From NCBI GenBank assembly GCA_963575745.1, contig CAUYUJ010000026.1, positions 1 to 64,000 of the forward strand: a stretch of DNA of 64,000 nucleotides, in the 5' to 3' direction. The notes beneath the pieces are model-generated. The model ran no database searches, was not told where the DNA came from, and was given only the letters and a program-made list of their open reading frames with translations. The stretch comes from Prorocentrum cordatum (Eukaryota). This document shows, piece after piece, positions 3,267-38,160 of the stretch; positions within the stretch are counted from its first letter, which is position 1; each line of letters opens with the position of its first letter. Position numbers and translations under genes: made by a program.

Positions 3267-4092
3267 CTGCCGCGCTGGCCGGCTCAAGGGTAAAAGGCAT
3301 TCCGCAGGTTATGAGCCCCGCGCGTTTGCCCCTCCAATCTCCTCATCTCTCGGGCCTTCTCTTTCTTTTCTTCGTTCGTGCGCGCCGCAATGCCGACATG
3401 GGTTGACACCCCGATCCCTGACGGCGATGACGATGACTTAGTCGATCCGATCACGAGCACGATTTCCACTGGAGCGCCCGCGCCAGAGGGTTTCTCGAAC
3501 CCCGTAGTCACCCGGTCGCGTCCTCGTGGTGCCGACAGCTGTGACGCTGTGTCACGTCCGGCTGAAAGCACCGAGGAGGAGGAGGAGGAGGAGGAGGAGG
3601 AGGAGGAGGAGGAGGAGGAGGAGGAGAAGGAGGAGGAGGGGTAGGAGGAGTAGGAGAAGGAGGAGGAGGAGGCGCGGCGGCGGAGCGGTGTCGGGCCGAA
3701 GGTCGATAAGATTCGCCTTACATCAATCTTCCGAGCACAACTCGAGAGATTGCGACCTACCGTGCGTGCCCCTTGCGGGGACGATTCGAGAACGGCCACC
3801 CCCTCGGGTGGGAGCCCCGATTTGTCATCGCTCAACCACGATTGCAAAAGCGAGGCGCACTAAGTTTGGGCCCAGGACCGAGCGGCAAAGCGGACACCAG
3901 GATCAAAAACGTGTGGCAGCTCGCACGAGCTCCTTAAAGCTGTACTGCCTGGCAGGAGGAGGAGGAGGGGGAGGTCTCGGAGGAGGAGGAGGACCTGACG
4001 GGCGGGCGACGGCAGCGGCACGAGCCTCGAGGTCGCACTCCCCCTCAGTGCGCATCGCCGAGGCCCTCGAGACAATCGGAGAAGGCAAGGCC

Positions 4093-4272
4093 GCCGATCC
4101 GCTCGCCGCCATCGGAGACGACAGAACCGCCGATCCACTCTTGGCAATCGAAGTAGCCAAGCCCGCCGATCCACTCGCGGCAATCGAAGTAGCCAAAGTC
4201 GCCGATCCACTCGCAGCGATCGGAGGCGACAAGGTCGCCGATCCACTCTTGGCAATCGTCGAAGGCAAGGTC
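4093..4272 (+). repeat. 36-bp tandem repeat, 5 units, reading ADPLxAIxxxKx on the plus strand
   Basis: gccgatcc(a/g)ctc...atc... recurs every 36 nt; followed by a ~140-bp duplication (about 4285-4425 and 4429-4570). Confidence 0.85.
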
Positions 4273-4647
4273 CACGACACAGCCCTGGCCTGGCCCCGAG
4301 ACGCTCCCCTCCTTTAATCCCTTGGGAACCGCCTCGGCGGAGGGGGTCTGCGGTTGCCAGGCCCGATGACGACCCAGCAATCGACCTCCTCCTGGCAATC
4401 GGAGTAGGCAAGGCCACTGATCCACTCCTGGCCTGGCCCCCGAGACGCTCCCCTCCTTTAATCCCATGGGAAGCTCCAAGGCGGAGGGGGTCTGCGGTTG
4501 CCAGGCCCGTAGACGACCCCGCGATCGACCTCCCCTTGGCAATCGGAGTAGGCAAGGCCGCTGATCCACCCTCCGCACTCGATGTAGCCGTCACCAAGCG
4601 CCGTCTCCCGCCCATCCCACCTCGAACCTGAGGCGCCGAAGCCGAGT

Positions 4648-5490
4648 CTACTGCTCGAAGTTGTCGATCGCTAGCTGGAGGATCCGCTCCGTATTCGAGC
4701 GAGGCGCGACTCCTGGTTTCTGCTCTCCTCCCAACTGCGTGAGGCACGCTATGAAGACCGACGTCAGCGACAGGTCCGCAAACGAGAAGGTGATCTTCGC
4801 TTGGCCCTCCTTGTATGCGCGGGCCACCCTGGAGCCGCGAACCAGAAGCCCGAACTCCGTGAGATTCGTGATGCCGTCCAGCTTCTGCTGCTGCTCCTGC
4901 CACTTCTGCTGGCTGACCGCCCCGACCGCCACGCCTGCCTTCACGCTTGCCTTGCACCCGATGAGGAAGACTTGGACGCAAGCAGGGCCCATGGCAACCT
5001 CGGGGAGTGGCTTCGCCTGGTCCTTGGCGTGTTCCTCCCTCATGGCCGCTGCCTGCTTCGCGTAGGCCCTGCCTGCTGCCAGTCCTTGCTGCACGATCTC
5101 GGCGTTCTCGTCGAACAGAAAGGTTTGAAATTCCGCTGCGTTCAAGGCCCGAATCTGGTACGAGTTCGCCAGCACGCCGCGAATCAGGATGGGGAATATC
5201 TGGGCCACCACCTGAAGGTCCATCGGCGGCAGCTTGTTGAGAACGTCGGCCTCCAGGCCATAGGCCTTGCTGAGCTGAGCCGCCACCGCTACGCCCACCG
5301 ACGCCTGTCCGCGCTGCTGGGCGCCTCGAGGCTCGGCGCTGCGCCTGGCGCCGCGTCCCCCGCCGCGCCTGCGGGAAGCGGCTGCCGAGCCAGATCGGCC
5401 TGCCCGCCCTCTCGGCTGAGAGCCGCCGCGCTGGGTTGAACGAGAACGAGTCCCTGCCTCCCGCAAGGCCTCGTCGGAAAGGCGGTGCAT
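4648..5490 (-). CDS. Uncharacterised ~280-aa ORF immediately downstream of, and overlapping the read-through of, the LINE pol
   Basis: Uninterrupted ORF from ATG 5490 (MHRLSDEAL); R/G-rich N-terminus then globular-looking sequence ending GGEQKPGVAPRSNTERILQLAIDNFEQ. Confidence 0.65.
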   Translation of the reverse strand: MHRLSDEALREAGTRSRSTQRGGSQPRGRAGRSGSAAASRRRGGGRGARRSAEPRGAQQRGQASVGVAVAAQLSKAYGLEADVLNKLPPMDLQVVAQIFPILIRGVLANSYQIRALNAAEFQTFLFDENAEIVQQGLAAGRAYAKQAAAMREEHAKDQAKPLPEVAMGPACVQVFLIGCKASVKAGVAVGAVSQQKWQEQQQKLDGITNLTEFGLLVRGSRVARAYKEGQAKITFSFADLSLTSVFIACLTQLGGEQKPGVAPRSNTERILQLAIDNFEQ

Positions 5491-5499
5491 CAGAGCGCG

Positions 5500-8400
5500 A
5501 CCGAACCGTCGAGTAGAGAGGCTCTCGTGGGGCGTGGGCTTCGCGCAGGTGCCGAGAAAGCTCGTAGAGCGTGCCAAACGGCTGTTCGACGGAGCAACAA
5601 AAATCCGAAGATGTCCCACCATACACCGAGCGCACCTTGAGAGACACGAGCGGGCACTCCAGGGACTCAGGCGGCACGATGGGATGCTTGAAGGGGGAGG
5701 CCTGGGCGAAGCACCTGCCTGTAAGCGTAGCCTGGACGAGATGTTCCTGGGCAATCCTCCGAGTCCGAAACGTCTGAGTGCAGAAAATACATTGGTTCGT
5801 AACCGTGGCCGTGTGCAACGCCGATCGGCACGAATGGCCTCCCCCGAGAGAAAACCTCTGGTGCGCCAGGAGGGCCCGTCTGGTCTTGAAAACTCGATCG
5901 CGCCCAGCTCCGTCGGGACCACGAAGATCGCATGTCCATGCAGCCGCAGCCGGCGGTGGGGCGACTTCGGGCGCCTCGGGAACGGCCTCAGCAGGTCCAT
6001 GCAGTCCAGGAGGAGGGGGAATCGCTACCGTCCGTGCCGCAGCTCGAAGAAGGCCTGGATCCAGGGCAAGATACCTCCCACGAAGGTCGTCATTCAGAAA
6101 AAGCGCCCGAACATTCAAGCGCCTCCAAGGTTCCAGGGACGGGACCGAAACCATGAGCAGCTCCTCCAGATCCTTAGCCTCGGAGCGGTCCAGGAGCCTC
6201 AAAACATCCAGGGCAGACCTGCGAGCGTACGGGTTCACCTTCTTCTCGAGGGTGCCGTTCTCCGAAACTGTGGGGGTCTCTTCTAGCGGGAGCTGCCCAA
6301 ACACCGCAGCGATCTCTTGAGGGTGCCGAGAAGGACGCACGAGCCAGCGACGATGCATGCGGAGTCGGCGGACACAGAGTTCGACCCCCGACGGCGCCAC
6401 CCCCACTCTGCGCAGGACGACCGCATCGGAGAGGGCCTTATACCTGATAACCTCGTGACCCTCGTCGTCGATAATAGGCATGCCGTCGCCGTCCACTGCC
6501 GTCGTCCTAGCACGCGCGTCGCCCCCGAGCAACTTTCGGCCGAACCCGACGAGCACCCGATCAAGCCGAAACTCCGGTGCCTCTGTCAGGATGAGGGTGG
6601 TGAGGCCAGACAGAAGCGCACCCTGCACGACGGCCCCAAATACAGTGCGAGTAAAACGCCACACACGGTTCCGAGACCAGAACCTCCCCATCGAGTAGTA
6701 CCCCCTCCTGCACGCCAAGATCCGTCTCCTCAACTCTCCTTGAACTCCTCCATTCACGGCAGTCTGGATTCCGAGCGCGATGTTATCAAACTGCACCTGC
6801 CCCTCCACCTTCACCTGTCCCCCGAAGATCGCAGCAGCATGTGCGTGAGCTCCTCGACCGACGGACGACGGGGAAATGCGACTTTTCCCACGGTTGTGTG
6901 CGTACCCACTCTCCCTCAGAGCAGCCGTCAGGCCCCTGTGGGCCGTGTTCAAAGTGAACTGCGCATTTTCAGCCGTCGTCACCACGTGAGTCTTACTGGT
7001 ATCGTCAGCATATATGCGACACGAGAGATCCACGGGGCGCTGGATAAATGGCGCCCATGCTGTACACAGAGACTCGCTGGGCCACATCACCCGCGCCCAG
7101 TCGCGGGGAGGAGCACGAGGAACGAGAGGTTGATCCAGCCACTCTTGGTACGAGAGAGGACGAGGAGGGACATCGGCAGGCCAAACCTGCTCACGCATAA
7201 AGTCAAGCCACTTCTGCACGGGTCGTCTAAAAGTGCGTGAACAAATACTGCCGCTGGACTGTCGCCCATTAAAGCTCCACAGCGATTGTGCATGGTAAGC
7301 TCCCCGTCGGCCCCCGTGATGGTAAAGGTATTGTATTCATGCCTATAATGGAAGTAAGCCTGATCAGGCCCCGCGATAGACTCGGCCACCGTGCGCCTAA
7401 GTTCAGGAAGCGTAGAGCACCCAAAGGCGTTATGACATATCCTCCTTCGAAGTCACTGAAGGGATCCCCAGACTGCGCAGCCTGCCCAAGAGAGCCTCCT
7501 GACAGATCATGGCCCCCTCCCTGTTGCGCCCGTGATGGTACCCGTGTTCACGGTCTGGGGCCTCATCGGGGGGACCTTTCAGTAGTTGCGCCTTAAACCA
7601 GACAGCCCCCATTCGGCAGAGCCCATGAATGTACCTGAGGGCCCCGAATCCTTGCTTGCCGTTCTGCTTGCTCAGTCCAGTTGCCCGAGAGTGATGCCAG
7701 ACCAGCGGGGTCCTGCCTACCCTCCTGGTGTGGTGGAACACCTTCTGGAGCCCCCTGAGCGTGTGAGTGTTGTCGAACGACTCGGGTGCAGTGCCTAACC
7801 CACGACGATCCCCTGCTAAGCGATGACGAGGAACGAAGGCAGGAACTCGAGAAGGTCCGTCGCCGTCCTCATCGTCGTTGTCTCTCTTCTTCGGCCGTCG
7901 ATAAGTGCCGTCGAATCTTCGCTGATGATGAAGGGCCAATATGAGGACCTCTGAGGGTACACTGTGCAGAGGAGCAGCCTTACGACGGGGGGCCTTCGCC
8001 AGCAGCTCAAGAACCTGCTCGAGGTCGGACCGTCCTAGCTCTACGTGCTCGAAGTTATCGATACCGTACATGGGGGGCTTCGGGGCGACCTCGAGCTGGG
8101 CCTTCTGGTACTCCTGAAACTCGATCGGCACGGCCTCGAAACCTCCCTGGGGCCCGGGTTTGGCGAAGTGCTCCCGAATCTCTGCGATCTTCGGAACGAA
8201 CTCGTCGACTGTGTTGCACCGCCTACGTTTGGGGCCTCCGCATTTAGCAGCACGTACATGGGCCAGCCTCCAGACTTCAGCATGCTGTCGTTTTTCCCAG
8301 GCCGAACCGATCTCCGACACCAGCTGCTCAGTCACGGTTGCCTGGCGGGCCCTCCGCAACTGGCGAAGATGACGAGAGAGCCGAGCCAACTTCATGGACG

Positions 8401-9580
8401 TCGCGAAGTCGTCGTCGCCGTTGGCCCTGGCCGAGCGTCGCGCCTCGAGGAGGCGACTCCGCTCTCGAGCATGCTCAGCCGCCTGAGGATCAGCAGCGGC
8501 AGCGCGTGAGAAGTGCCTGTCCGCGACCTCGAACACAGTAGTCATCCATCTCTCCCAACCAAGGTCGGGGGTGGGGGCGTGGAGCAGTAACTCATGGAAG
8601 TCCACGCCCTCGAACTGCGCCTCCAGGTCCGCGACGAAGGCGCCCGCTCCTGTGCCTCGACGAAGAGCTTCCCCCAGTCTGTCGAAGTCCCACTGCGTGC
8701 CGTGCTTAGATGCCGCCATGTCAAACGCGTAGTTCAGGCGTAAAAGAATGGGCACATGATCTTGAAGCCCGTGTTTCTTGACCAGCTTCAGTCGCAAGTT
8801 GGACGAGCGCATCGCCAGGCAGCGGTCAACCATGCTCTCCTGCCAGGAAAAAATAGCCACGAAATCAATCTGAGACGATCCCACGGCTCCGTAGTAGCTG
8901 GGCCCCAGGGGAAAGTCCGTCGAGGTCACCGCCACAGCGTGACGCTCCATGACTTCTAGGACGCGATCAGCAGCATACCTCTGCTCGCCCGTCCTGTGCG
9001 GGCCCAGTGCGGGCGATACGACGGCTTCCTGCACACCGCCCGCCCTCCGACGCCAGCCGAACGAGTCATTCATGTCGAAGCCCCACAGAAGGGCAGACCG
9101 CTTGCACGACCAGGTCAAAGTCTTCTCAAGCCACGAGATCATCGCGTCGACAGTCAATCTGTACAGTCGCTGCGGACCGTCATCGCTCTCGCGGCCCACA
9201 CGCTTCCCCGACGGCTTCGGAGGGAAGTAGGTCACTGGGATGAGAATGTCGAAGCGGCCAGACCGCAGTCGAAATAACGCAACACGTCCTCGGAGAGAGA
9301 CTGGCACAGCAGGGACGTCAACCAGGTGGCGACGTCGATAGACACGCTTTCGGAGGAGAAGAGTAATGCCACACGATCGATTGACAAACTTGCTTGGTGT
9401 GTATCCGCACCTGAGCGCGAAGTGGTAGCGCAGCGTGGTGAACACAGTGGGTTGGTCAGGTGCCGCCCGCTCGCACGTGCTTGTGAGTGCGATGATGTCC
9501 ACAGTGCGCATCTCCTCACTAATATCTTGCAATCTGCCCTCGTCTGCCGCCATACAGTTCCAATGCACGAATGTCAGCAT
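5500..9580 (-). pseudogene. LINE pol (AP endonuclease, reverse transcriptase, C2H2 zinc fingers) broken by frameshifts near 7430 and ~7200
   Basis: APE motifs TFVHWNC, GFDMND, SQIDFV, QDHVPI; RT motifs EHGYHHGR, DMS/NAF (split by a 1-nt shift), GALMGDS, IYADD; fingers CIFC...EHL and C...FKTRRALLAHQRFSLGGGH. Confidence 0.9.
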
Positions 9581-9736
9581 AGCAAGAACACGGCAAGCAG
9601 AACACATCAACTGAGAGTACAGTGAGTGAAGAGAGCTGGCCGAGTGGGGTGGCCGCCAGCTCCGCACGGGTACGGTTGGCGGGGGGCCGCATGTACACCA
9701 GCCCCGTGTGCAGGAAAGCCTGGGCGCGGGGGGCTA

Positions 9737-11990: not shown

Positions 11991-14030
11991 GTGGACACTC
12001 GAGGTTACCCAGAGATCACCCTCTTCAGCATCAAATTCAGGAAGCCACGAACGCCAGAGACTGAACCCGACCCTAGCCTCCGTCATGCCTTGGGAGTTCA
12101 CCTCGTGGGTCTCCAACACAAGCTTCAAGCTAAGAAGCATCATGGAAACATCTCTTACCTACTGAAGCAAGGACGGGTGGATAGTTGTTATCGACGAGGT
12201 GTGGTCAAAGCTTTGAAGACGACGAGCGGGGAGCTTATCACGGACGTTGACGAGATGAGGGAGGAGTTGGAGACGTTTTACGAGGTCCTTTTTCACCGAT
12301 GGTGTCAGAGACGGCCAACTCCCGTCATGGGAGTGGCAGCAGTGGTCACGGGAGGACGCGGCGAACCTCCCGCGCAAGTTGAGCGCTGCACTCCTCCGCT
12401 CCTGTCTGTCTAGGATGAAGCGAGGCAACTCATGCTCGAGAAACGATTGCGTGGTAGGGGGATGATTCAAAACTTGAGTAACGACACGCTTGACTTGCTG
12501 AGCCAGATTTTCTTGCTGCGCCTCATTAGGCACCCCAATGAGCAGAATGACCGCGTTTTTGCACGGCACCAAGTCACGCTAACAGCCAAGTTCCAGGGAG
12601 CCTGTCGAGTCACGGACTTCCGACCGATGGCCCTCTTTTGCATCCTGAAATTGTATTCGATGTGCGTGGGAGCTCTCATCGATTTCCACGACTGTGAGCT
12701 CTCAGCTGCCCAGTTCGCTTTCAGGGGCTTCCAGGTCCACGAGGTCGTAGCGTCAACGAGAGTTTTGATCGATAAAGCGAAAGAGCACCAGTAACGTTTC
12801 TACATGGGAACCATGGACTTCCACAAAGCCTACGACCACGTTCCCCATATGAAGATCATCAGAAACCATCGCAGGAGGGGGATCCGTAAGATCATCACCG
12901 CGGCCTGGCTCCGAGAGATCCGTGGGGGCGCCCCTGGGCTACTCCTACCAGGACTGCCTGCGACACGGGCTGTACCTAGGACCCGCTCATTGCTGCAAGG
13001 AGATCCAGAGGCTCCCTATCAGTTTTCTCTTTACGCAGATGGTGCTGTGCGTGATTTAGAAGCTAGACGTGTATCGGAGGGGTGGGGATATCCACTACAG
13101 GAGGAAGACTTGGAGGTCATGAGACAGAACGAGCGGAGAGGGAACGAGCTCAAGGTGGATCACCTCAGCCTGCTTCTGTTTGCCGACAACTGTTTTATCT
13201 CTGCTACCTCGGTGGCCATGTTGATTCAGATGATGACGGCATGTCACGACATCATCAGTAAGTACGCGGTAGTGGTCCGGCACGACGAGTGCTATTGGAT
13301 CACCGCGGCGTCTGCCACCAGCCAGATGAAAGTACAGCTCCCCGAATGTACTCTGGAACGAATCCCCCGAAGTACAGGTATCAATATGTCGGGCGCCCAT
13401 GTCTCCTTTGACGGCAGTGCGAGCTCCGTGCGTGGTCTACCTTCACCAAGAACCGTGCGTCACTTTGCGTACAAAGGGCCCGTCTACGACAAAGGCTAGC
13501 GCTCGACAGGACTGCGGGCCGCAGCGTTCCATTGTTTCGGTACCCTCCTTCTCACCCGCCAGCATCTGAGCCAAATCAAGGCCATTCAGAGTATAATGGT
13601 TCGATATAAGTTCAAGATCCCTGGGCGCGACCAAGAGGATATTTCCGAGTACGTGAGAGAGGTCCACCGTCGCGTCCAACAAAAACCTTCCAGGATCACG
13701 ATTCCCGTACCTGGGACCATTAGATTTTGCTGCTTAACCATTCTTGGGCGGGCCACCTGGTTCGTATGAGCTCTTATGATGCACGACGCTGGCTTCACAG
13801 GCTTTCCCCAACAAGAGCTTCAAGTATTTGAAACACCGTGAGGGCGTCATTGGATCCCAGGGCCACCGGAGGAACTTCCATGCATTGCGGTGGGAGAAGC
13901 AGTTTTACCAGTTTTTCGCCACGCGCGACTGGCACCAGTATGCCTTGCAGCTCGAGGAATGGCAGACCTACTCCGAGGAATGGCTGCGCTGGAGACTCGC
14001 GGACATGGGTGCTCAGAAAGGAAAAACCTC
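11991..14030 (+). pseudogene. Non-LTR reverse transcriptase, fragmented by stops and frameshifts
   Basis: FRPMAL..LKLY, QFAFR, MDFHKAYDHV, LLQGDP, LLFADN, and a downstream WAGHLVR-like motif near 13745. Confidence 0.88.
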
Positions 14031-24050: not shown

Positions 24051-29712
<5,662 letters not shown>

Positions 29713-29791
29713 CTTGTTTGGATTATTCATATTATTCGTTTCGTTTCCCAATCAGAGCCTGCCTCCGTAGGGGTCCTGGCGGAGTCATTTG

Positions 29792-29803
29792 TTTTGGCTC
29801 AAG
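29792..29803 (+). other. Relic of the dinoflagellate spliced leader (3' 12 nt)
   Basis: ttttggctcaag equals the 3' end of DCCGTAGCCATTTTGGCTCAAG; lies 3 nt inside the left TSD and 88 nt before an ATG. Confidence 0.8.
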
Positions 29804-29891
29804 CTTTTTTTATCTTCTAGCTTGAAGTTGGACGTGGGCGTGGTGTAGCGAAGGCTCGGCGGCTAGATCGACCTAGGCTTCCTCGGCGACC

Positions 29892-31105
29892 ATGGCGTTT
29901 CGCGCAGCGGGCGCGCCCCAGCAAGCTGACCTGCCGGCCCAGCCGCTCGGCGCTCTGCAGGGCTTGCGCGCAGCGAGGGCGGATCGGCGCGTGGAGTGTG
30001 CCGTGAACGGCAATGCGGCGCAGCTCCGTTCGTTGACCAAGACTTCGGGCCCCGTCAAAGGCACAGAGTACGTGGACGGCAGGGGCATCCACGAGACCGA
30101 CATTGCCGCCAACGCTTGGCTCTTTGGAGCCACGCGCGCGGTGCTTGCGGTTGCGAACGGGGTCGGCGTCGGAGTGGCGGCAGGCCAGATCCCGGGCGCC
30201 CTGCTCCTGTTCGTCGCCTACGCGGTGCAATTCTCGGTCCGGTACGAGCTCAACGAGTGGGCGGCGAACGGAGACGAGAGGTGGGCTGGGGCTGCAGTGG
30301 ACGTCGCCACTGGCCGCGCCGCGGTGCAGGCTGCTACGGCTGCTCTTCCTGGGTTCGGGGGCGTGGCTCCAGGCGGGGGTCCTTTCGCGGCGGACCAGCA
30401 GGGCGTCCTTGGTCTCCCAGCGGGCTCCGGATTGATCGACGTGTCAATTCCAGCTGCTTTCCTGCAGGTGATCAACACTTGGACAGGTTCCGCTTTCCTG
30501 GACACGCTGGCTTCCGTCTGTCTCTTTCTCGTGGCGACAGAGCTCTGTGCCAGTGGGCATCACTACCTGTCGACATGGACAAATATCTTCCGGCTTACGA
30601 TGACATGTTCCAAGCGGTCGCCCGCGCCGTGGGAATGTCGCTCGCAGACGTTCGCTCTTTCCTGCTTCACCGGGCGCTGCACACGATGGAGACTCTCGCT
30701 CCATCATGGCTTGGGCGACCGGAGCACCTGCGAAAGAGGCCTAGGTCGCTTGGGGATTCCCAGAGGTTGCCTTGCGCTTTCCGTTCATGCTCTCGGCAAT
30801 GCATTGTGCGGGCGCATATTACTCCCTCATCATCGAGGCTCTGGAGCTCGCCGGCGCGCTGGGAGCCCGCTGGGAGTTGGGCACCGCGCGCCAGGTGACC
30901 ACCTGGGCCCATGGCCTGACCTACGCACAGGCGAGCCAGCCAGGGGTCGACGGCGCTTGCATGGCGCGAAGGCACCGTAGCCTTTCTCGCCAGTTTCCTC
31001 GCAGCCCACGCAGCCCAGTCAGGTGCTGACTGCACCTCGCTTCGGGCGAAGTCGGTGGATCGGCTGAAGAAATCCAAGGGCGCTGCATGGGGGCAGGGCT
31101 CGCGG
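29892..31105 (+). pseudogene. Intronless ~400-codon unknown ORF with about three frameshifts; candidate RNA-virus nucleoprotein-like endogenous element
   Basis: Joined frames read MAFRAAG...SGHHYLS / KYLPAYDDMFQAV...FLLHRALHT / LRFPFMLSAMHCAGAYY... / VAFLASFLAAH...TSLRAKSVDRLKKSKGAAWGQG; product identity unverified. Confidence 0.55.
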
Positions 31106-32854
31106 CAGAGCCCTCGACAACACAAGAACGACAGGTGCAGGGGCGCCGCTGGGCTCACGGCAGAACTGTTCAAAGCAGGAGGCGCCACCTTACAGTGCCA
31201 CCTACTTCGACTGCACAACGAAGCAATCAAGCCTGATCGCCCCCCGCCAGACCAATGGAAGAGCACCGCCATCACTGCTATGCACAAGTCTGGTGACCCC
31301 GAACTACCAGGCAATTTCAAACCAATTGCCTTCATCCCTCTGCTATATAAGCTGATGCCTCGCCTCCTTTGCAACCGGCTCGGCGCCTTGTTCGACTCGC
31401 AACAATGCCCGGACCAAGCAGGTTGCTGCAAGAACTATTGCACAGAGGACCATCTGTTCACCACAGCAATGCTTCATGAGAGCCCTTACGAATGGCAGCT
31501 GCCGCTCTGGGCTGCCCGAATAGATTTCAAGAAAGCGTTCGACTGTGTTGACCGCGACTGTATGTGGGGCGCTCTACGACAGCAGCATTTACCTACCGCC
31601 TACATCACCCTCCTGCGACACTTATATAGCACCCAAACTGGTACGGTTCGGACGGATACCAACAGCAGAGCCTTCAATATCGAACGGGGCGTTAAGCAGG
31701 GAGACCCGCTGAGCTCTCTCCTTTTCAACGCCGTCCTAGAGCACGTGCTGCGCGCGTTCAGAGAAGTGAAACCTGTTTGGGCACGGAAGAAATTCGGGAT
31801 CCAACTTGGCTTCTCAGCACAGGCGCGGATTACGAATCTGCGTTTCGCCGACGACGTGTTGTTGTACGCCGCCAACCTCAGACAGCTCACCTGCTTACTT
31901 CGAGACGTACAAGCCCACGCAGCTAAATGCGGCCTGTTGCTACATCCGGAAAATAGAAAGACCCTGACAAACATTAGCCGGAGAGAGGGGCGAACAATCG
32001 CCCATGTCGACATCAACGGCGACAGCATCAGCACCCTACATTCCAGCCGCGGAACGAAGTTTTTGGGGGGAGAATTCCCTTTTCACGACTTTCATGGCGC
32101 AGAGCTGCACGACAGGATTGCCGCAGGGTGGGCCCGTTTCAATCAGCTTCGTTACGAGTTGACCAACAAACGCTTCCCGCTTCATAGTAGACTGAGGCTG
32201 TTCAATGGCACTGTCATGCCATCCGTGTTGCACGGCTGCTCCCCCTGGACTCTGACGAAGGAGATGCTTCTTATTCCCAGGCGCGTTCAACGGAAAATGC
32301 TCAGGCTTGTCGCGGGGGTGCCGCGGAGACGCAGCGAGCAACGCCAGCGCGCGCTCGACACCTCCGACGACGACCACCACCACAACATGACCGACGCCGA
32401 CACAGCAAACAACCCGAACTACGCAACCAACAACAGCGACGTGAGGAATGATGACGGAAAGGAACCATGGGCCGACTACATCCGACGAGCCACGCGCGAA
32501 GCCACGGTCCATGCTTCCCGCGCCCAAGTGGAAGAATGGGTTGCTCTATATTTCAAACGGAAATGGAAATGGGCACCCCGTGCGGCGACACATGACTGCG
32601 ACAGGTGGACTTTCTTAGCTGCTTCGTGGGAACCACGCGCGCGCGACCCTCGCCCAGCGCGCCGGCGGCATGGAGGTCAACGAAAGCGACGGGCAGACGA
32701 CATCATGCATTTCTTACGCGCCAAAGGCGCGCGTGAAGACCGCGACGACCAGGAACGCAACAACCAGCGGTTATCAATTGCAACAGACCAACAACTATGG
32801 AGGGATCTAGAAGATGATTTCATACATTACGCCTACGTCCATTACAACCTATAG
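31106..32854 (+). pseudogene. Reverse transcriptase of an RTE-like LINE, 5'-truncated (no endonuclease), frame still open
   Basis: GLTAELFK, KSGD..LPGNFKPI, DQAG, IDFKKAFDCV, RGVKQGDPLSSLLFN, LRFADDV, KWKWA. Confidence 0.93.
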
Positions 32855-33180
32855 GATCTAGAATGCTTCCCCGACTCCAACTTTACGTGTTCTTCCCACT
32901 CTGGTCTTTTCTCCGCCTCCTGTTCACACTTCTCCTCTCTCCGACTCCGGCGCCGGCTCCCGCTCCTGCCCCCGACGCGTCCTCTGAGGGCTCCGGCCCG
33001 CCCGCGCTGCTCCTAAGGGGCCCGCCGGCCGGCCGGCGGACACAGCGCGCCTCGCCTCGCCTCGCCTAGCGGAGTCATCTGGTTAGGTGAGGTGTCCCGC
33101 CGATTTCCGCGGCCCGCCCGGGTGCCCGGTTGCCCGGGTGCCCAGGTGCCCGGGCGCCCCTGTGCCCGGGTGCTTTATTG

Positions 33181-33900
33181 GCCTATAGCCCTATAGCCCT
33201 ATAGCCCTACAGCCCTATAGCCCTATAGCGCTATAGCTACATAGCCCTATAGCTTTACAGCCCTGCAGCCCCATAGCCCAATAGCCCTATAGCCCTATAG
33301 CCATATAGCCCTACAGACCAATAGCCCTATAGCCCCATTGCCCTGTAAACCTATAACCCAATAGCCCAATAGCCCGATAGCCCCCCTATATCCCTATAGC
33401 CCCATAACCCTAGTAGCCTTTTAACCTTATAGCCATATAGCCCTATTGCCCTGTAAGCCTGTAGCCCTGTAGCTCTATATGCCTATAGCCCTAGGGCCCT
33501 ATAGCCCCATAGCCCTGTATCCATGTAGCCATATAGCCCTATGGTCCTATAGCACTATAACCTATAAGCCTATAGCCCTGTAGCTCTATATGCCTATAGT
33601 CCCATGGCCCTATAACCCCATATCCTTATATCCCTATAGCCAGATTGCCCTATTGGTCCTATAGCCCTATAGCTCCACAGCCCTATACATTCATAGCCCT
33701 ATGGCCCTGTAGCCCTATAGCCGCATAGCCCCAGAGCCCCATAGCCCCATAGCCCTATAGCTCTACAGTCCTATGGCCCTATCGCCGCCAAGCCCTACAG
33801 CACTAGAACCCTATAGACCTATAGCCCTATGGCCCTATAGCCCCATATATCCATAGCCCTATAGCCCCATATTCCCAGGGCCCTATAGCCGAATAGCCCC
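33181..33900. repeat. Degenerate 8-bp (GCCCTATA)n tandem repeat
   Basis: Direct reading. Confidence 0.92.
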
Positions 33901-33934
33901 ATTCCATATCGTCGTGCACGTTTTTTTTTTTTTC

Positions 33935-35640
33935 TCCCCAACCCTCCTTGGTTGGGTATTCGTTTTGAATAGAGCAGTGTGGTCTCCACTCCTTCCTTCC
34001 TCCTCCTCCTCCCTCCCTGCCTCTTCCTGTCTTGCCTGCGGGGGGCTGCGATCTGTGAAACTGTCGTCATTTTCGAGGCCTGCTGGGGGGCCCAGCACAG
34101 TGAGGGCGACCTGCGCGGATTCAAATGAACCTCGCCATCCCTGGGGGGCTGCGATCTGTGAAACTGTCGCCATTTTTCGAGGCGTGCTGGGGGTCCCAGC
34201 ACAGTGATGGTCGGATCGGCGCAGTTCAAATGAGACATGTTTCCAAGACGAGTTGCTGCGATCTGGAAACTGTCCGCCAAAATTTTTTTTTTTTTCGAGG
34301 CCTGCTGGGGGGCCCAGCACAGTGAGGGCGACGCGCAGATTCAAATGAGACCTCGCCATCCCTGGGGGGCTGCGATCTGTGAACTGTCGCCATTTTCGAG
34401 GCGTGCTGGGGGGCCCAGCAGAGTGAGGGCGACGCGCATATTCAAATGAGACCTCGCCATCCCTGGGGGGCTGCGATCTGTGAAGCTGTCGCCATTTTCG
34501 AGGCCTGCGGGGGGGCCCAGCACAGTGAGGGCGACGCGCGGATTCAAATGAGACCTCGCCATCCCTGGGGGGCTGCGATCTGAGAAACTGCCGCATTTTC
34601 GAGGCCTGCTGGGGGGCCCAGCACAGTGAGGGCCACGGGCAGATTCAAATGAGACCTCGCCATCCCTGGGGGGGCTGCGATCTGTGAAATTGTCGCCACT
34701 TTCGAGGGCTGCTGGGGGGCCCAACACCGTGACTGCCACGGGCATTTCAAAATTGAACCGTCGCCTTCCCTGGGGGGCTGCGATCTGTGAAACTATCGCC
34801 ACTTTCGAGGCCTGCTGGGGGGCCCAGCACAGTGAGGGCCACGCGCGGATTCAAATTAGACCTCGCCATCCCTGGGGGGCTGCGATCTGCGAAACTGTCG
34901 CCATTTTCGAGGCGTGCTGGGGGGCCCAGCACAGTGAGGGCCACGCGCAGATTCAAATTAGACCTCGCCATCCCTGGGGGGCTGCGATCTGCGAAACTGT
35001 CGCCATTTTCGAGGCCTGCTGGGGGGCGCAGCACAGTGAGGGCCACGCGCGGATTCAAATTAGACCTCGCCATCCCTGGGGGGCTGCGATCTGCGAAACT
35101 GCCGCCATTTTCGAGGCCTGCTGGGGGGCCCAGCACAGTGAGGGCCACGGGCAGATTCAAATGAGACCTCGCCATCCCTGGGGGGGCTGCGATCTGCGAA
35201 ACTGTCGCCATTTTCAGGGCCTGCTGGGGGGCCCAGCACAGTGACGCCACGGGCAGATTCAAATTTGACCTCGCCATCCCTGGGGGGGTGCGATCTGTGA
35301 AACTGTCGCCATTTTCGAGGCCTGCTGGGGGGCCCAGCACAGTGAGGGCCACGGGCAGATTCAAATGAGACCTCGCCATCCTTGCGGGGCTGCGATCTGT
35401 GAACCTGTCGCCACTTTCGAGGCCTGCTGTGATCCCCGTTTTCGAAGTGGCTAGGAGTGCTCAGGAATTGTAAATCATCAGCTTTGTCAAGCCCTTTTCC
35501 TGTAGCCAGTGTCCTGCGAGTCTCCCGAATTCCGTCTGCAGACATATGTAACCCTCGCTCCGTCATCGCCCCCTTATAAAGTATCCTAAACTATTTGCGC
35601 CCCGCTTTTGCGCAGGGGTTGGGCACGTCGCCAGGGTAAT
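33935..35640 (+). mobile_element. Helentron-like non-autonomous element, family A copy 1, with ~101-bp satellite
   Basis: 5' hairpin cccaaccctccttggttggg after a T run; tandem ~101-bp units; conserved ~200-bp 3' block ending gggttgggcacgtcgccagggtaat. Confidence 0.75.

Positions 35641-35671: not shown

Positions 35672-38160
<2,489 letters not shown>

What the first reader, a model, noticed from the sequence alone, without database searches (positions are those of the whole stretch)
29775..33078. Single retro-insertion fusing a spliced-leader-capped mRNA to a LINE (template-switch capture)
Seen: 14-bp direct repeats (13/14 identical) enclose, in order, a spliced-leader relic, an 88-nt UTR, an intronless foreign ORF, a junction near 31105, the RT-to-3' end of an RTE-like LINE and a (CGCCT)n tail. 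Established: dinoflagellate mRNAs carry this leader; target-primed reverse transcription makes TSDs and can switch templates (as in U6-L1 chimeras). Inference: the LINE RT began on its own RNA, jumped to an SL-bearing RNA and copied it almost to the cap. This is direct structural evidence for how mRNA recycling and foreign RNA capture occur in these genomes.
Basis: partly seen in the sequence, partly recalled or inferred. Interest (0 to 1): 0.85.

Follow-up and report, generated by a model that had tools for sequence, protein, structure and literature searches.

The report
Spliced-leader mRNA copy fused to LINE
One retro-insertion in a dinoflagellate-type genome joins the front 1.3 kb of a spliced-leader-capped messenger RNA to the back 1.95 kb of a LINE retrotransposon, which physically ties a LINE's copying machinery to the "mRNA recycling" typical of these genomes.

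Summary
Near-identical direct repeats (13/14; 15/17 when extended; exact 10-mer core) at 29775-29791 and 33065-33081 enclose, in order:
- a 12-nt exact spliced-leader (SL) relic;
- an 88-nt 5'UTR;
- a non-LINE coding region;
- a junction at 31106-31115;
- the RT-to-stop part of an APE-type LINE, its 3'UTR and a (CGCCT)4 tail.

Public DNA contigs join the two flanks directly, with a single copy of the repeat. So everything between the repeats is one insertion into a member of a dispersed repeat.

- The 5' ORF is a pseudogene (three frameshifts, one in-frame stop) of a small orphan protein family with no Pfam, PDB or viral match.
- It is cut off at about codon 437 of 468-524, exactly where LINE homology starts (residue ~488 of ~1056).
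- It is not a LINE ORF1.
- No remainder of the gene lies beyond 33081.

A single LINE-made chimeric retrocopy is well supported (~0.85). Template switching is the leading route (~0.45). A chimeric RNA formed before reverse transcription (~0.35) is not excluded.

Chimeric LINE retrocopies are known in mammals and fungi. My searches found none described in dinoflagellates.

The parts
29675..29774 (.). Upstream flank: non-satellite part of the target repeat, lying between the (GTA)n array and the upstream repeat copy. It contains TCCGTAG at 29764-29770.
   Evidence: One search places the (GTA)n array end at 29674. In one search, 15 X1 contigs carry this flank directly in front of the downstream repeat copy (27/30 letters equal to 29745-29774, compared by eye). 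Those copies read TCTGTAG, so the SL-like 7-mer belongs to the target, not to the leader.
29775..29791 (+). Upstream copy of the target-site duplication, CCTGGCGGAGTCATTTG.
29792..29803 (+). Spliced-leader relic TTTTGGCTCAAG, equal to nt 11-22 of DinoSL.
   Evidence: DinoSL sequence as printed in PMC7245778.
29804..29891 (+). 88-nt 5'UTR of the captured mRNA.
29892..31108 (+). Pseudogene of an orphan protein family, covering codons 1 to ~437 only. Reading frame by window-coordinate phase: frame 3 for 29898-30593, frame 2 for 30575-30697, frame 1 for 30676-30927 with an in-frame TAG at 30742-30744, then frame 2 for 30947-~31108.
   Evidence: 12 representatives at E<=0.001 among 1.84 billion proteins, best 1.5e-20.; colinear profile hits with E 4.6e-36, 2.3e-7, 0.01, 8e-6 and 5e-6.
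31106..31115 (+). Junction between the mRNA-derived part and the LINE-derived part. It is in frame with the LINE ORF and has no A-run or tail.
   Evidence: Family homology runs to Q63, nt 31108. LINE homology starts at R66, nt 31115. In 54 of 56 relatives with at least 100 residues available upstream, the alignment starts at query aa 62-79.
31115..32854 (+). LINE ORF remnant: RT domain (FADD motif present) plus the C-terminal domain, through the natural stop. It corresponds to residues ~488-1023 of a 1056-aa APE+RT protein. No frameshift or stop interrupts it.
32855..33047 (+). LINE 3'UTR.
   Evidence: Diverged copies in X1 cover it. It shows no exceptional fold (z=+1.6).
33048..33067 (+). (CGCCT)4 tail. 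Its last CCT overlaps the first three letters of the downstream repeat copy.
   Evidence: Two X1 contigs show another tail unit, (GCGTCT)n, in other LINE copies (loose end at 33037).
33065..33081 (+). Downstream copy of the target-site duplication, CCTAGCGGAGTCATCTG.
33082..33115 (.). Downstream flank of the target repeat, followed by (GCCCGGGT)n and (CCTATAGC)n arrays.

Best explanation
One target-primed reverse-transcription event, carried out by the machinery of an APE-type LINE with a microsatellite tail, inserted a two-part cDNA into a copy of a dispersed repeat.

Steps, marked as shown or inferred:
1. Inferred: the bottom strand was nicked in front of ...CCTRGCGG. Its 3' end (...AGG) can pair with the CCU of the LINE RNA's (CGCCU)n tail and primed cDNA synthesis.
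2. Shown: the RT copied the 3'UTR and the ORF back to about codon 488.
3. Inferred, favoured: the RT then carried on along a second RNA. This was an SL-trans-spliced transcript of an orphan-family gene, entered at about codon 437, perhaps at the 3' end of a partly degraded molecule. It was copied through the 88-nt 5'UTR into the leader, up to nt 11.
4. Shown as outcome: the top strand was cut 14-17 nt downstream, giving the duplication. The 5' joint lies in CAT/TG microhomology between the target and the leader.
5. The copy was dead on arrival (no APE domain, no start codon for the RT) and has decayed since.

Confidence by level: single LINE-made chimeric insertion ~0.85; template switch as the way the two RNAs were joined ~0.45.
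For: - One duplication encloses SL relic through LINE tail, reached by 1 of 3000 shuffles.
- Empty-site form: one X1 contig joins 29783 to 33080 and one X2 contig joins 29788 to 33113. Fifteen X1 contigs that lie on 33065 onward carry the upstream flank immediately before it.
- The SL relic directly abuts the upstream repeat copy and is unique in the window.
- LINE homology starts mid-ORF at nt ~31115. In 54 of 56 relatives with upstream sequence, the alignment stops there.
- 31 of the 120 listed relatives carry an APE endonuclease domain ahead of the RT. No APE match exists in the window.
- Family homology runs colinearly from codon 1 to the junction. It is absent from the rest of the window.
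- There is no A-run or second tail at the junction, and both parts have the same orientation.
- This layout matches the features listed for LINE template-switch chimeras in PMC2104539 (Background and Results passages read).
Against: - Nothing in the window tells a template switch from reverse transcription of an RNA that was already chimeric.
- The acceptor RNA is not full length, which departs from the classical pattern (PMC2104539).
- All 4 disabling lesions (3 frameshifts, 1 stop) lie in the 1.2-kb 5' part and none in the 1.74-kb LINE ORF. By my arithmetic this has conditional p about 0.03. It could mean the two parts differ in age, or that the 5' template was already a pseudogene transcript.
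- The duplication copies differ at 2 of 17 positions.
- The junction itself is not covered by any independent contig, so it rests on this assembly alone.
- The parent gene was not found.
Confidence: 0.45

Rival explanations
1. The RNA was already chimeric before reverse transcription. A 5'-truncated LINE sat, in sense orientation, inside or just downstream of a transcribed and already decayed copy of the orphan gene. Read-through, cis- or trans-splicing, or RNA ligation then gave an SL-gene-LINE RNA. Its LINE 3' end was recognised in trans by the LINE RT, and the RNA was copied as one template.
For: - It explains without extra assumptions why the gene part stops inside its coding region.
- It explains why the gene part is a pseudogene while the LINE ORF is open.
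- Precedents: human mRNA-5'-exon::L1 chimeras ascribed to splicing or 5' transduction (10.1101/2025.02.02.635956, abstract and section 24 read), and RNA ligation before U6/L1 retrotransposition (PMC6789731, search listing and abstract only).
- P0121 shows that the same family is fused to a retroelement 3' part in another genome.
Against: - No second copy of the junction was seen in any data I could reach. This is weak, because coverage is thin.
- The human mRNA::L1 cases mostly involve near-full-length LINEs. Here the LINE has lost ~46% of its ORF.
- It needs sense orientation and trans-mobilisation of a 3.3-kb defective RNA.
Confidence: 0.35
2. Two separate events at one place. An older SL-bearing retrocopy and a later LINE insertion (or the reverse order) ended up adjacent, with a deletion trimming the join. 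The flanking repeats are then only partly meaningful.
For: Lesions are unevenly spread: 4 in the 5' part and 0 in the LINE ORF. The repeat copies differ at 2 of 17 positions.
Against: - The repeat pair brackets the SL relic on one side and the LINE tail on the other.
- The empty-site contigs show exactly one repeat copy, with the two outer flanks contiguous.
- There is no poly(A) or tail at the junction, no repeat pair around the LINE part alone, and no gene remainder after 33081.
Confidence: 0.05
3. The 5' ORF is the normal ORF1 (gag-like protein) of this LINE family. The element would then be an internally deleted LINE whose own transcript was SL-trans-spliced.
For: The family turns up fused to retroelement 3' parts in 2 of 13 known instances, the window and P0121. 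It has no known function.
Against: - No similarity exists between 4 family proteins and the 120 LINE relatives.
- The two fusions involve two unrelated retroelement types at different junctions.
- P0122 and P0131 are stand-alone ORFs that share their own conserved C-terminus.
- Full-length relatives sit on contigs barely longer than their single ORF, for example 1047 aa on 3326 nt and 1056 aa on 3663 nt. This leaves no room for a 1.4-kb ORF1, although those contigs may be cut.
Confidence: 0.03
4. Assembly artefact: the junction at 31106-31115 was created by misjoining a unique region to a repeated LINE.
For: No independent contig spans the junction. The LINE part is repeated in X1, where 596 pieces were laid, most under 95% alike. 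The window holds a 100-N gap at 25493-25592, so this is a scaffolded draft.
Against: - The two outer ends match one target site.
- The two parts share no sequence that could mislead an assembler.
- The reading frame runs through the joint.
Confidence: 0.04

Closest known systems
Bipartite chimeric retroelements made during LINE reverse transcription: MINE (WEIRD::MGL) in Magnaporthe, and U6::L1 and mRNA::L1 in mammals (PMC2104539, passages read)
   Same: The 3' part is a 5'-truncated LINE carrying its own tail. The 5' part is a copy of another RNA that reaches that RNA's 5' end. The two are joined directly in the same orientation. The whole is flanked by one 10-20-bp direct repeat.
   Different: Here the 5' part is not a full-length RNA copy, because it stops inside the coding region. 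Its 5' end is marked by a trans-spliced leader. The LINE ends in a (CGCCT)n microsatellite rather than poly(A). The host is a dinoflagellate-type genome.
Human mRNA-5'-exon::LINE-1 chimeric insertions (Law and Burns preprint 10.1101/2025.02.02.635956, abstract and section 24 read)
   Same: A sense-oriented 5' fragment of an mRNA starts at the transcript start, is fused to a LINE, and is enclosed in one TSD.
   Different: Those LINEs are mostly near full length, and the joints often sit at splice donors, which suggests splicing. Here the LINE lacks its first ~487 codons, and splice sites cannot be assessed without the parent gene.
Dinoflagellate retrogenes and retrocopies tagged by DinoSL relics (PMC6050394, PMC12014239, PMC7245778; passages read)
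   Same: Genomic DNA encodes part of the post-transcriptionally added leader directly upstream of a 5'UTR and coding region.
   Different: Those are described as whole-mRNA copies, and the enzyme responsible is stated to be unknown. Here the copy is physically fused to a LINE 3' half inside a single TSD.
dinoRNAV endogenous viral elements with nearby LINEs and dinoSL relics (PMC10235124, passages read; supplements searched)
   Same: A non-LINE ORF sits with an SL relic close to a LINE reverse transcriptase. LINE-mediated retroposition is proposed there.
   Different: That paper reports proximity (95 bp to 17 kb), not a direct fusion inside one TSD. I could not show that the 5' ORF here is related to the viral capsid or polymerase.
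LINEs specific for spliced-leader RNA genes (SLACS, CZAR, CRE, NeSL-1); recalled, not from any call
   Same: A non-LTR element lies next to spliced-leader sequence.
   Different: Those elements split an SL RNA gene. Here the leader piece lies inside the duplication, is followed by a UTR and an ORF, and the uninterrupted target copies contain no leader.

Membership tests
LINE-made chimeric retrocopies (features i-v as listed in PMC2104539, Background) | The 5' part is a full-length copy of a cellular RNA. | tested here: not met
   The 5' end is present (SL relic). Homology to the family profile stops at about position 425-437 of proteins that are 468-524 aa long. It passes straight into LINE sequence with no stop codon, 3'UTR or tail. 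Caveat: the true parent was not found.
LINE-made chimeric retrocopies | The 3' part is a 5'-truncated LINE with its own 3' end. | tested here: met
   It aligns to residues ~488-1023 of a 1056-aa APE+RT relative. No APE domain is in the window. The 3'UTR and (CGCCT)4 tail are present.
LINE-made chimeric retrocopies | The parts are joined directly in the same transcriptional orientation. | tested here: met
   Both parts are on the + strand. At most about 9 nt are unassigned between the last family-like and the first LINE-like codon.
LINE-made chimeric retrocopies | The whole chimera is flanked by one pair of short direct repeats (a TSD). | tested here: met
   13/14 identical, 15/17 when extended. 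1 of 3000 shuffles reach this. Contigs show a single repeat copy with contiguous flanks.
LINE-made chimeric retrocopies | The chimera forms by RNA template switch during reverse transcription. | not testable with these tools
   This needs the parent loci, many independent junctions, or an assay. No whole genome is held for this window.
DinoSL-tagged retrocopy | Leader sequence is encoded in genomic DNA directly upstream of the UTR and coding region. | tested here: met
   12 of 22 nt are exact at 29792-29803, followed by an 88-nt UTR and the ATG. Leader sequence taken from PMC7245778.
DinoSL-tagged retrocopy | The copy lacks the introns of its parent gene. | not testable with these tools
   The parent gene was not found. 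The copy is colinear with homologous proteins apart from three frameshifts.
RTE-clade LINE | A single ORF of ~1000 aa holds an N-terminal APE endonuclease and an RT, with no long ORF1, in an element of ~3.3 kb. | tested here: inconclusive
   31 of the 120 listed relatives have APE plus RT in one ORF of ~950-1100 aa, on contigs of 3.2-4.9 kb. This copy lacks the 5' half. The clade traits themselves are recalled, not taken from a call.
RTE-clade LINE | Phylogenetic placement of the RT within the RTE clade. | not tested
   No reference set of LINE clades was at hand.
dinoRNAV endogenous viral element (capsid gene) | Sequence or fold homology of the ORF to the dinornavirus major capsid protein. 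| tested here: inconclusive
   No reference capsid sequence was available to me. There was no Pfam hit. The models have low confidence (pLDDT 54 and 57), so the fold searches say little.
Spliced-leader-gene-specific LINEs (SLACS/CRE/NeSL) | The element interrupts an SL RNA gene, with leader sequence on the flanks. | tested here: not met
   The leader piece lies inside the duplication and is followed by an mRNA 5'UTR. Uninterrupted target copies have no leader.

The most novel reading that the evidence does not exclude
This locus may be a fossil of the general route of dinoflagellate 'mRNA recycling'. In that route, APE-type LINE reverse transcriptases with sequence-specific tails cannot prime on ordinary mRNAs. 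They pick them up by jumping from their own RNA onto SL-capped RNAs in mid-synthesis. The orphan family is caught twice independently, by two unrelated retroelement types in two genomes. It could therefore be the RNA of an abundant selfish or virus-like agent that repeatedly becomes endogenous this way.
Probability: 0.12. Interest if true: 0.8.

Novelty: new variant of a known kind. Interest (0 to 1): 0.55.

Why it matters
Dinoflagellate genomes hold thousands of retrocopies tagged by leader relics, yet the enzyme that makes them is unsettled.
- A 2018 review states that the retroelement type is unknown and leans towards LTR elements (PMC6050394, 'Mechanism of Retroposition' passage).
- A 2025 paper says that retroviruses cannot be ruled out (PMC12014239, Introduction passage).

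This single locus places an SL-capped mRNA copy and a LINE 3' half inside one target-site duplication. It is therefore physical evidence that a non-LTR element's target-primed machinery reverse-transcribed an SL-bearing RNA at least once.

It also supplies a concrete search template for whole genomes: SL relic, then non-LINE sequence, then LINE 3' end with tail, all inside one TSD. The count of such loci and the spread of their junctions would decide between template switching and pre-formed chimeric RNAs. They would also show how much of the recycling is LINE-driven.

This is one decayed locus, not a functional gene, so its value is mechanistic and anecdotal until it is generalised.

Tried and rejected
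- Whole genome: none is held for this window. No genome-wide scan, parent-gene search or junction count was possible.
- Other copies in the window: blastn of 29701-33200 against the window gave only the self-hit.
- Earlier notes of this scan: nothing by place, sequence or words.
- Sequencing runs: four DNA rows, with shares 0.18, 0.05, 0.00 and 0.00. No RNA holder is listed, so nothing can be said on expression.
- Laid contigs:
  - Bins 29827-30522 and 30987-31102 had no cover in any run.
  - Only identical short contigs lay on 30602-30921 (X1) and 30550-30728 (X2).
  - X3 laid nothing.
  - Missing cover is no evidence on copy number or on the junction.
- Nature of the 5' family:
  - No Pfam hit, even at E<=1.
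  - No PDB sequence hit at E<=1.
  - The AlphaFold models were poor (pLDDT 54.4 and 57.4).
  - BFVD best E was 0.06 and 0.69.
  - VIA-align against 48,161 PDB chains gave best Z 5.4 and 4.2, generic helical matches.
  - No relatives in IMG/VR with P0122, P0131 or the window ORF.
  - No relatives in JGI metagenomes.
  - The profile was too weakly conserved for a pattern scan.
  - The word-index search with the family profile returned only P0122 itself.
  - None of this shows that the fold or family is new, or non-viral.
So the sources and names of the family members are unknown.
- dinoRNAV paper supplements: four text files were searched for five family motifs, with 0 occurrences. One PDF of pictures could not be read.
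- Empty-site pattern in JGI metagenomes: 0 matches.
- Rfam on 29000-34000 at E<=0.1: nothing.
- LINE 3'UTR plus tail folded as RNA: not more stable than shuffles (z=+1.6, 192 of 200 shuffles fold at least as well).
- The idea that TCCGTAG at 29764-29770 is the front of the leader: rejected. Uninterrupted copies of the target repeat carry the same stretch, read as TCTGTAG.
- Window-private substitutions in the LINE ORF: 38 listed sites, 27 non-synonymous, codon positions 14/13/11. This fits neutral decay. However, the comparison contigs may belong to other subfamilies, so no age was derived.
Full report
**What is there**

The window carries long satellite arrays around the finding:
- (GTA)n at 26006-29674;
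- (GCCCGGGT)n at 33116-33173;
- (CCTATAGC)n at 33182-33899;
- a 102-bp tandem array at 34292-35429.

Between the arrays lie about 100 nt of non-satellite DNA, then the element, then about 34 nt of non-satellite DNA.

The element reads as follows (coordinates checked):

| Coordinates | Feature |
|---|---|
| 29775-29791 | repeat copy CCTGGCGGAGTCATTTG |
| 29792-29803 | TTTTGGCTCAAG |
| 29804-29891 | 88 nt |
| 29892 | ATG |
| up to ~31108 | coding sequence |
| 31115-32854 | LINE ORF remnant |
| 32855-33047 | 193-nt 3'UTR |
| 33048-33067 | (CGCCT)4 |
| 33065-33081 | repeat copy CCTAGCGGAGTCATCTG |

**The repeats and the leader relic**

The match extends to 15/17 and has an exact 10-mer core. A match of this score between the two 40-nt junction windows arose in 1 of 3000 shuffles.

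Real window pairs 3290 nt apart reach the score in 134 of 2979 cases. After a complexity filter they reach it in 69 of 3000. The window's own satellites and tandem arrays inflate that control.

The 12-mer equals the last 12 nt of the DinoSL printed in PMC7245778. It is the only exact copy on either strand of the 64-kb window.

**Independent evidence for one insertion**

Logan contigs of four coded public DNA runs were laid on 29711-33170.
- One X1 contig joins 29783 to 33080.
- One X2 contig joins 29788 to 33113.
- Fifteen X1 contigs that lie on 33065 onward carry a 30-nt consensus immediately before that point. By eye it equals the window's upstream flank 29745-29774 at 27 of 30 letters.

So in other copies (or alleles) of this repeat the two flanks are contiguous, with a single copy of the 17-mer. 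Everything from the leader relic to the LINE tail is therefore an insertion.

The same consensus reads TCTGTAG where the window has TCCGTAG (29764-29770). This settles a puzzle I had noted. That leader-like 7-mer belongs to the target, not to the leader.

**The LINE part**

- ORF 30920-32854 holds RVT_1 (E=6e-23).
- A word-index search found 342 relatives at E<=0.001 among 8000 scored candidates. Of the 120 listed, 31 also carry an APE endonuclease domain. These have ORFs of ~950-1100 aa on contigs of 3.2-4.9 kb.
- The window aligns to residues 488-1023 of the 1056-aa P0015 (45% identity). It aligns to residues 5-569 of P0001 (58% identity).
- Of the 56 relatives with at least 100 residues upstream of the aligned part, 54 start aligning at window ORF residue 62-79, which is nt 31103-31154. 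The other two extend further only at very low similarity.
- tblastn with four relatives finds no APE-like stretch anywhere in the window.

The LINE is therefore 5'-truncated in the middle of its ORF. Calling it 'RTE-like' fits the single APE-RT ORF, the small size and the microsatellite tail, but those clade traits are recalled. I made no phylogeny.

**The 5' part**

An exhaustive HMMER search with ORF 29892-30980 found 12 representatives at E<=0.001 among 1.84 billion proteins. The best was P0121 at E=1.5e-20. One of the twelve, a lectin, matches only the out-of-frame tail and is spurious.

A profile built from P0122, P0131 and P0124 hits the region colinearly, but in changing frames:

| Window nt | Profile positions | Frame | E-value |
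|---|---|---|---|
| 29898-30593 | 4-240 | 3 | 4.6e-36 |
| 30575-30697 | 238-282 | 2 | 2.3e-7 |
| 30676-30735 | 275-294 | 1 | 0.01 |
| 30751-30927 | 300-358 | 1 | 8e-6 |
| 30947-~31108 | 368-~425 | 2 | 5e-6 |

- An in-frame TAG lies at 30742-30744 between the two frame-1 stretches.
- The last stretch is confirmed pairwise against P0131 (11/25 identical, E=7e-4, at the colinear place). Against P0122 the support is weaker (E=0.2).
- The gene copy therefore has three frameshifts and one nonsense codon.
- It ends at about codon 437 of proteins that are 468-524 aa long.
- It passes into LINE sequence within about 9 nt (31106-31115), in the LINE's frame, with no stop codon, UTR or A-run.
- tblastn with 11 family proteins finds nothing elsewhere in the window, so no remainder lies beyond 33081.

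**What the family is**

This remains unknown. Pfam, PDB sequences, BFVD, PDB folds, IMG/VR and JGI metagenomes gave nothing usable, and the two structure models are of low confidence (details under Tried and rejected). What can be said:
- P0122 and P0131 share 43% identity along their whole length, including a common C-terminal ...SGCF. They therefore look like real stand-alone proteins.
- Four family members have no similarity to the 120 LINE relatives.
- P0121, a 558-aa ORF on a 67-kb ENA contig, is a second fusion. Residues 1-234 belong to the family. Residues 247-548 match the region just after the RT domain of P0135 (RVT_1 at 260-459, aligned 477-746) and of P0134.

That is a different retroelement type and a different junction. 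It may itself be a nested insertion, because I could not see its DNA.

**Mechanism**

The geometry fits target-primed reverse transcription.
- The downstream repeat copy starts with CCT, which is also the end of the tail unit. The nicked bottom strand could therefore pair with the RNA tail.
- The upstream joint lies in CAT/TG similarity between the target and the leader (CCATTTTGG).
- Both mismatches between the repeat copies sit at these two ambiguous edges, while the 10-nt core is exact.

All of this is inference from the sequence.

The remaining question is how the two RNAs came together. Template switching is the classical explanation for LINE chimeras flanked by one TSD (PMC2104539). However, it usually yields full-length 5' partners, and here the partner was entered internally.

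A pre-formed chimeric RNA explains the internal breakpoint naturally. It could arise by read-through or splicing from a gene copy with a nested LINE. That is how the human mRNA::L1 cases in 10.1101/2025.02.02.635956 (section 24) are explained. It could also arise by RNA ligation (PMC6789731, abstract only).

All four disabling lesions lie in the 5' part. My conditional estimate for this is p about 0.03. It hints that the 5' template was already a pseudogene transcript, but chance is not excluded.

Thirty-eight sites where the window differs from nearly all X1 copies are spread evenly over codon positions (14/13/11; 27 are non-synonymous). This is consistent with neutral decay of the LINE part as well.

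My odds:
- single LINE-made chimeric insertion, 0.85;
- within that, template switch 0.45 and pre-formed RNA 0.35;
- two-step origin, 0.05;
- assembly artefact, 0.04;
- regular ORF1, 0.03.

**Comparison and novelty**

LINE-made chimeric retrocopies are known in mammals and a fungus. DinoSL-tagged retrocopies are known in dinoflagellates. LINEs near dinoRNAV endogenous elements that carry dinoSL relics have been noted (PMC10235124).

Five full-text searches turned up no report of an SL-bearing mRNA copy fused directly to a LINE inside one TSD in a dinoflagellate. The library does not cover most subscription journals.

The reviews I read state that the enzyme behind dinoflagellate retroposition is unknown and lean to LTR elements (PMC6050394). 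A later paper leaves retroviruses open (PMC12014239).

I rate this a new variant of a known kind. It is of moderate interest as a single but clean piece of structural evidence, and as a template for a genome-wide test.

Noticed in passing
P0121 (558 aa, 67-kb ENA contig) and P0133 (531 aa, 912-kb contig); not in the window: P0121 is a second, independent fusion of the same orphan family (residues 1-234). Its partner is the post-RT part of a different RT-bearing retroelement (residues 247-548 match P0135 477-746 and P0134). P0133 is 92% identical to that retroelement part but lacks the family domain.
   Followed up: partly
window 3863-9733, minus strand: Two very long open frames of 1158 aa (3863-7336) and 767 aa (7433-9733) have no Pfam match at E<=0.001.
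   Followed up: partly
window 12615-13496, plus strand: A second, distantly related reverse-transcriptase fragment: RVT_1 E=2e-8, 20-24% identity to the LINE relatives. It comes from a different retroelement.
   Followed up: partly
window 26006-29674 and 35680-36901; 33182-33899; 34292-35429: Kilobase-scale (GTA)n arrays (1221 and 400 copies), a (CCTATAGC)n array and a 102-bp tandem array (11 copies, 91% matches) surround the insertion. Open frames with the same peptide-like unit (…RPRHPWGAAICETVA…) recur at about 41.8-46.3 kb, 49.9-51.7 kb and 55.2-57.4 kb.
   Followed up: no
window 29764-29770: TCCGTAG, identical to the first 7 nt of the spliced leader, sits 4 nt upstream of the duplication. 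Uninterrupted copies of the target repeat read TCTGTAG there, so it is part of the target. Whether leader-like target sequence helped the 5' joint to form is open.
   Followed up: partly
window 33037 onward, in other LINE copies of run X1: Two contigs of related LINE copies end in a (GCGTCT)n tail instead of (CGCCT)n (loose ends). The tail unit therefore varies between copies of this LINE family.
   Followed up: no
window 25493-25592: A run of 100 N marks a scaffold gap, so the window comes from a scaffolded draft.
   Followed up: no
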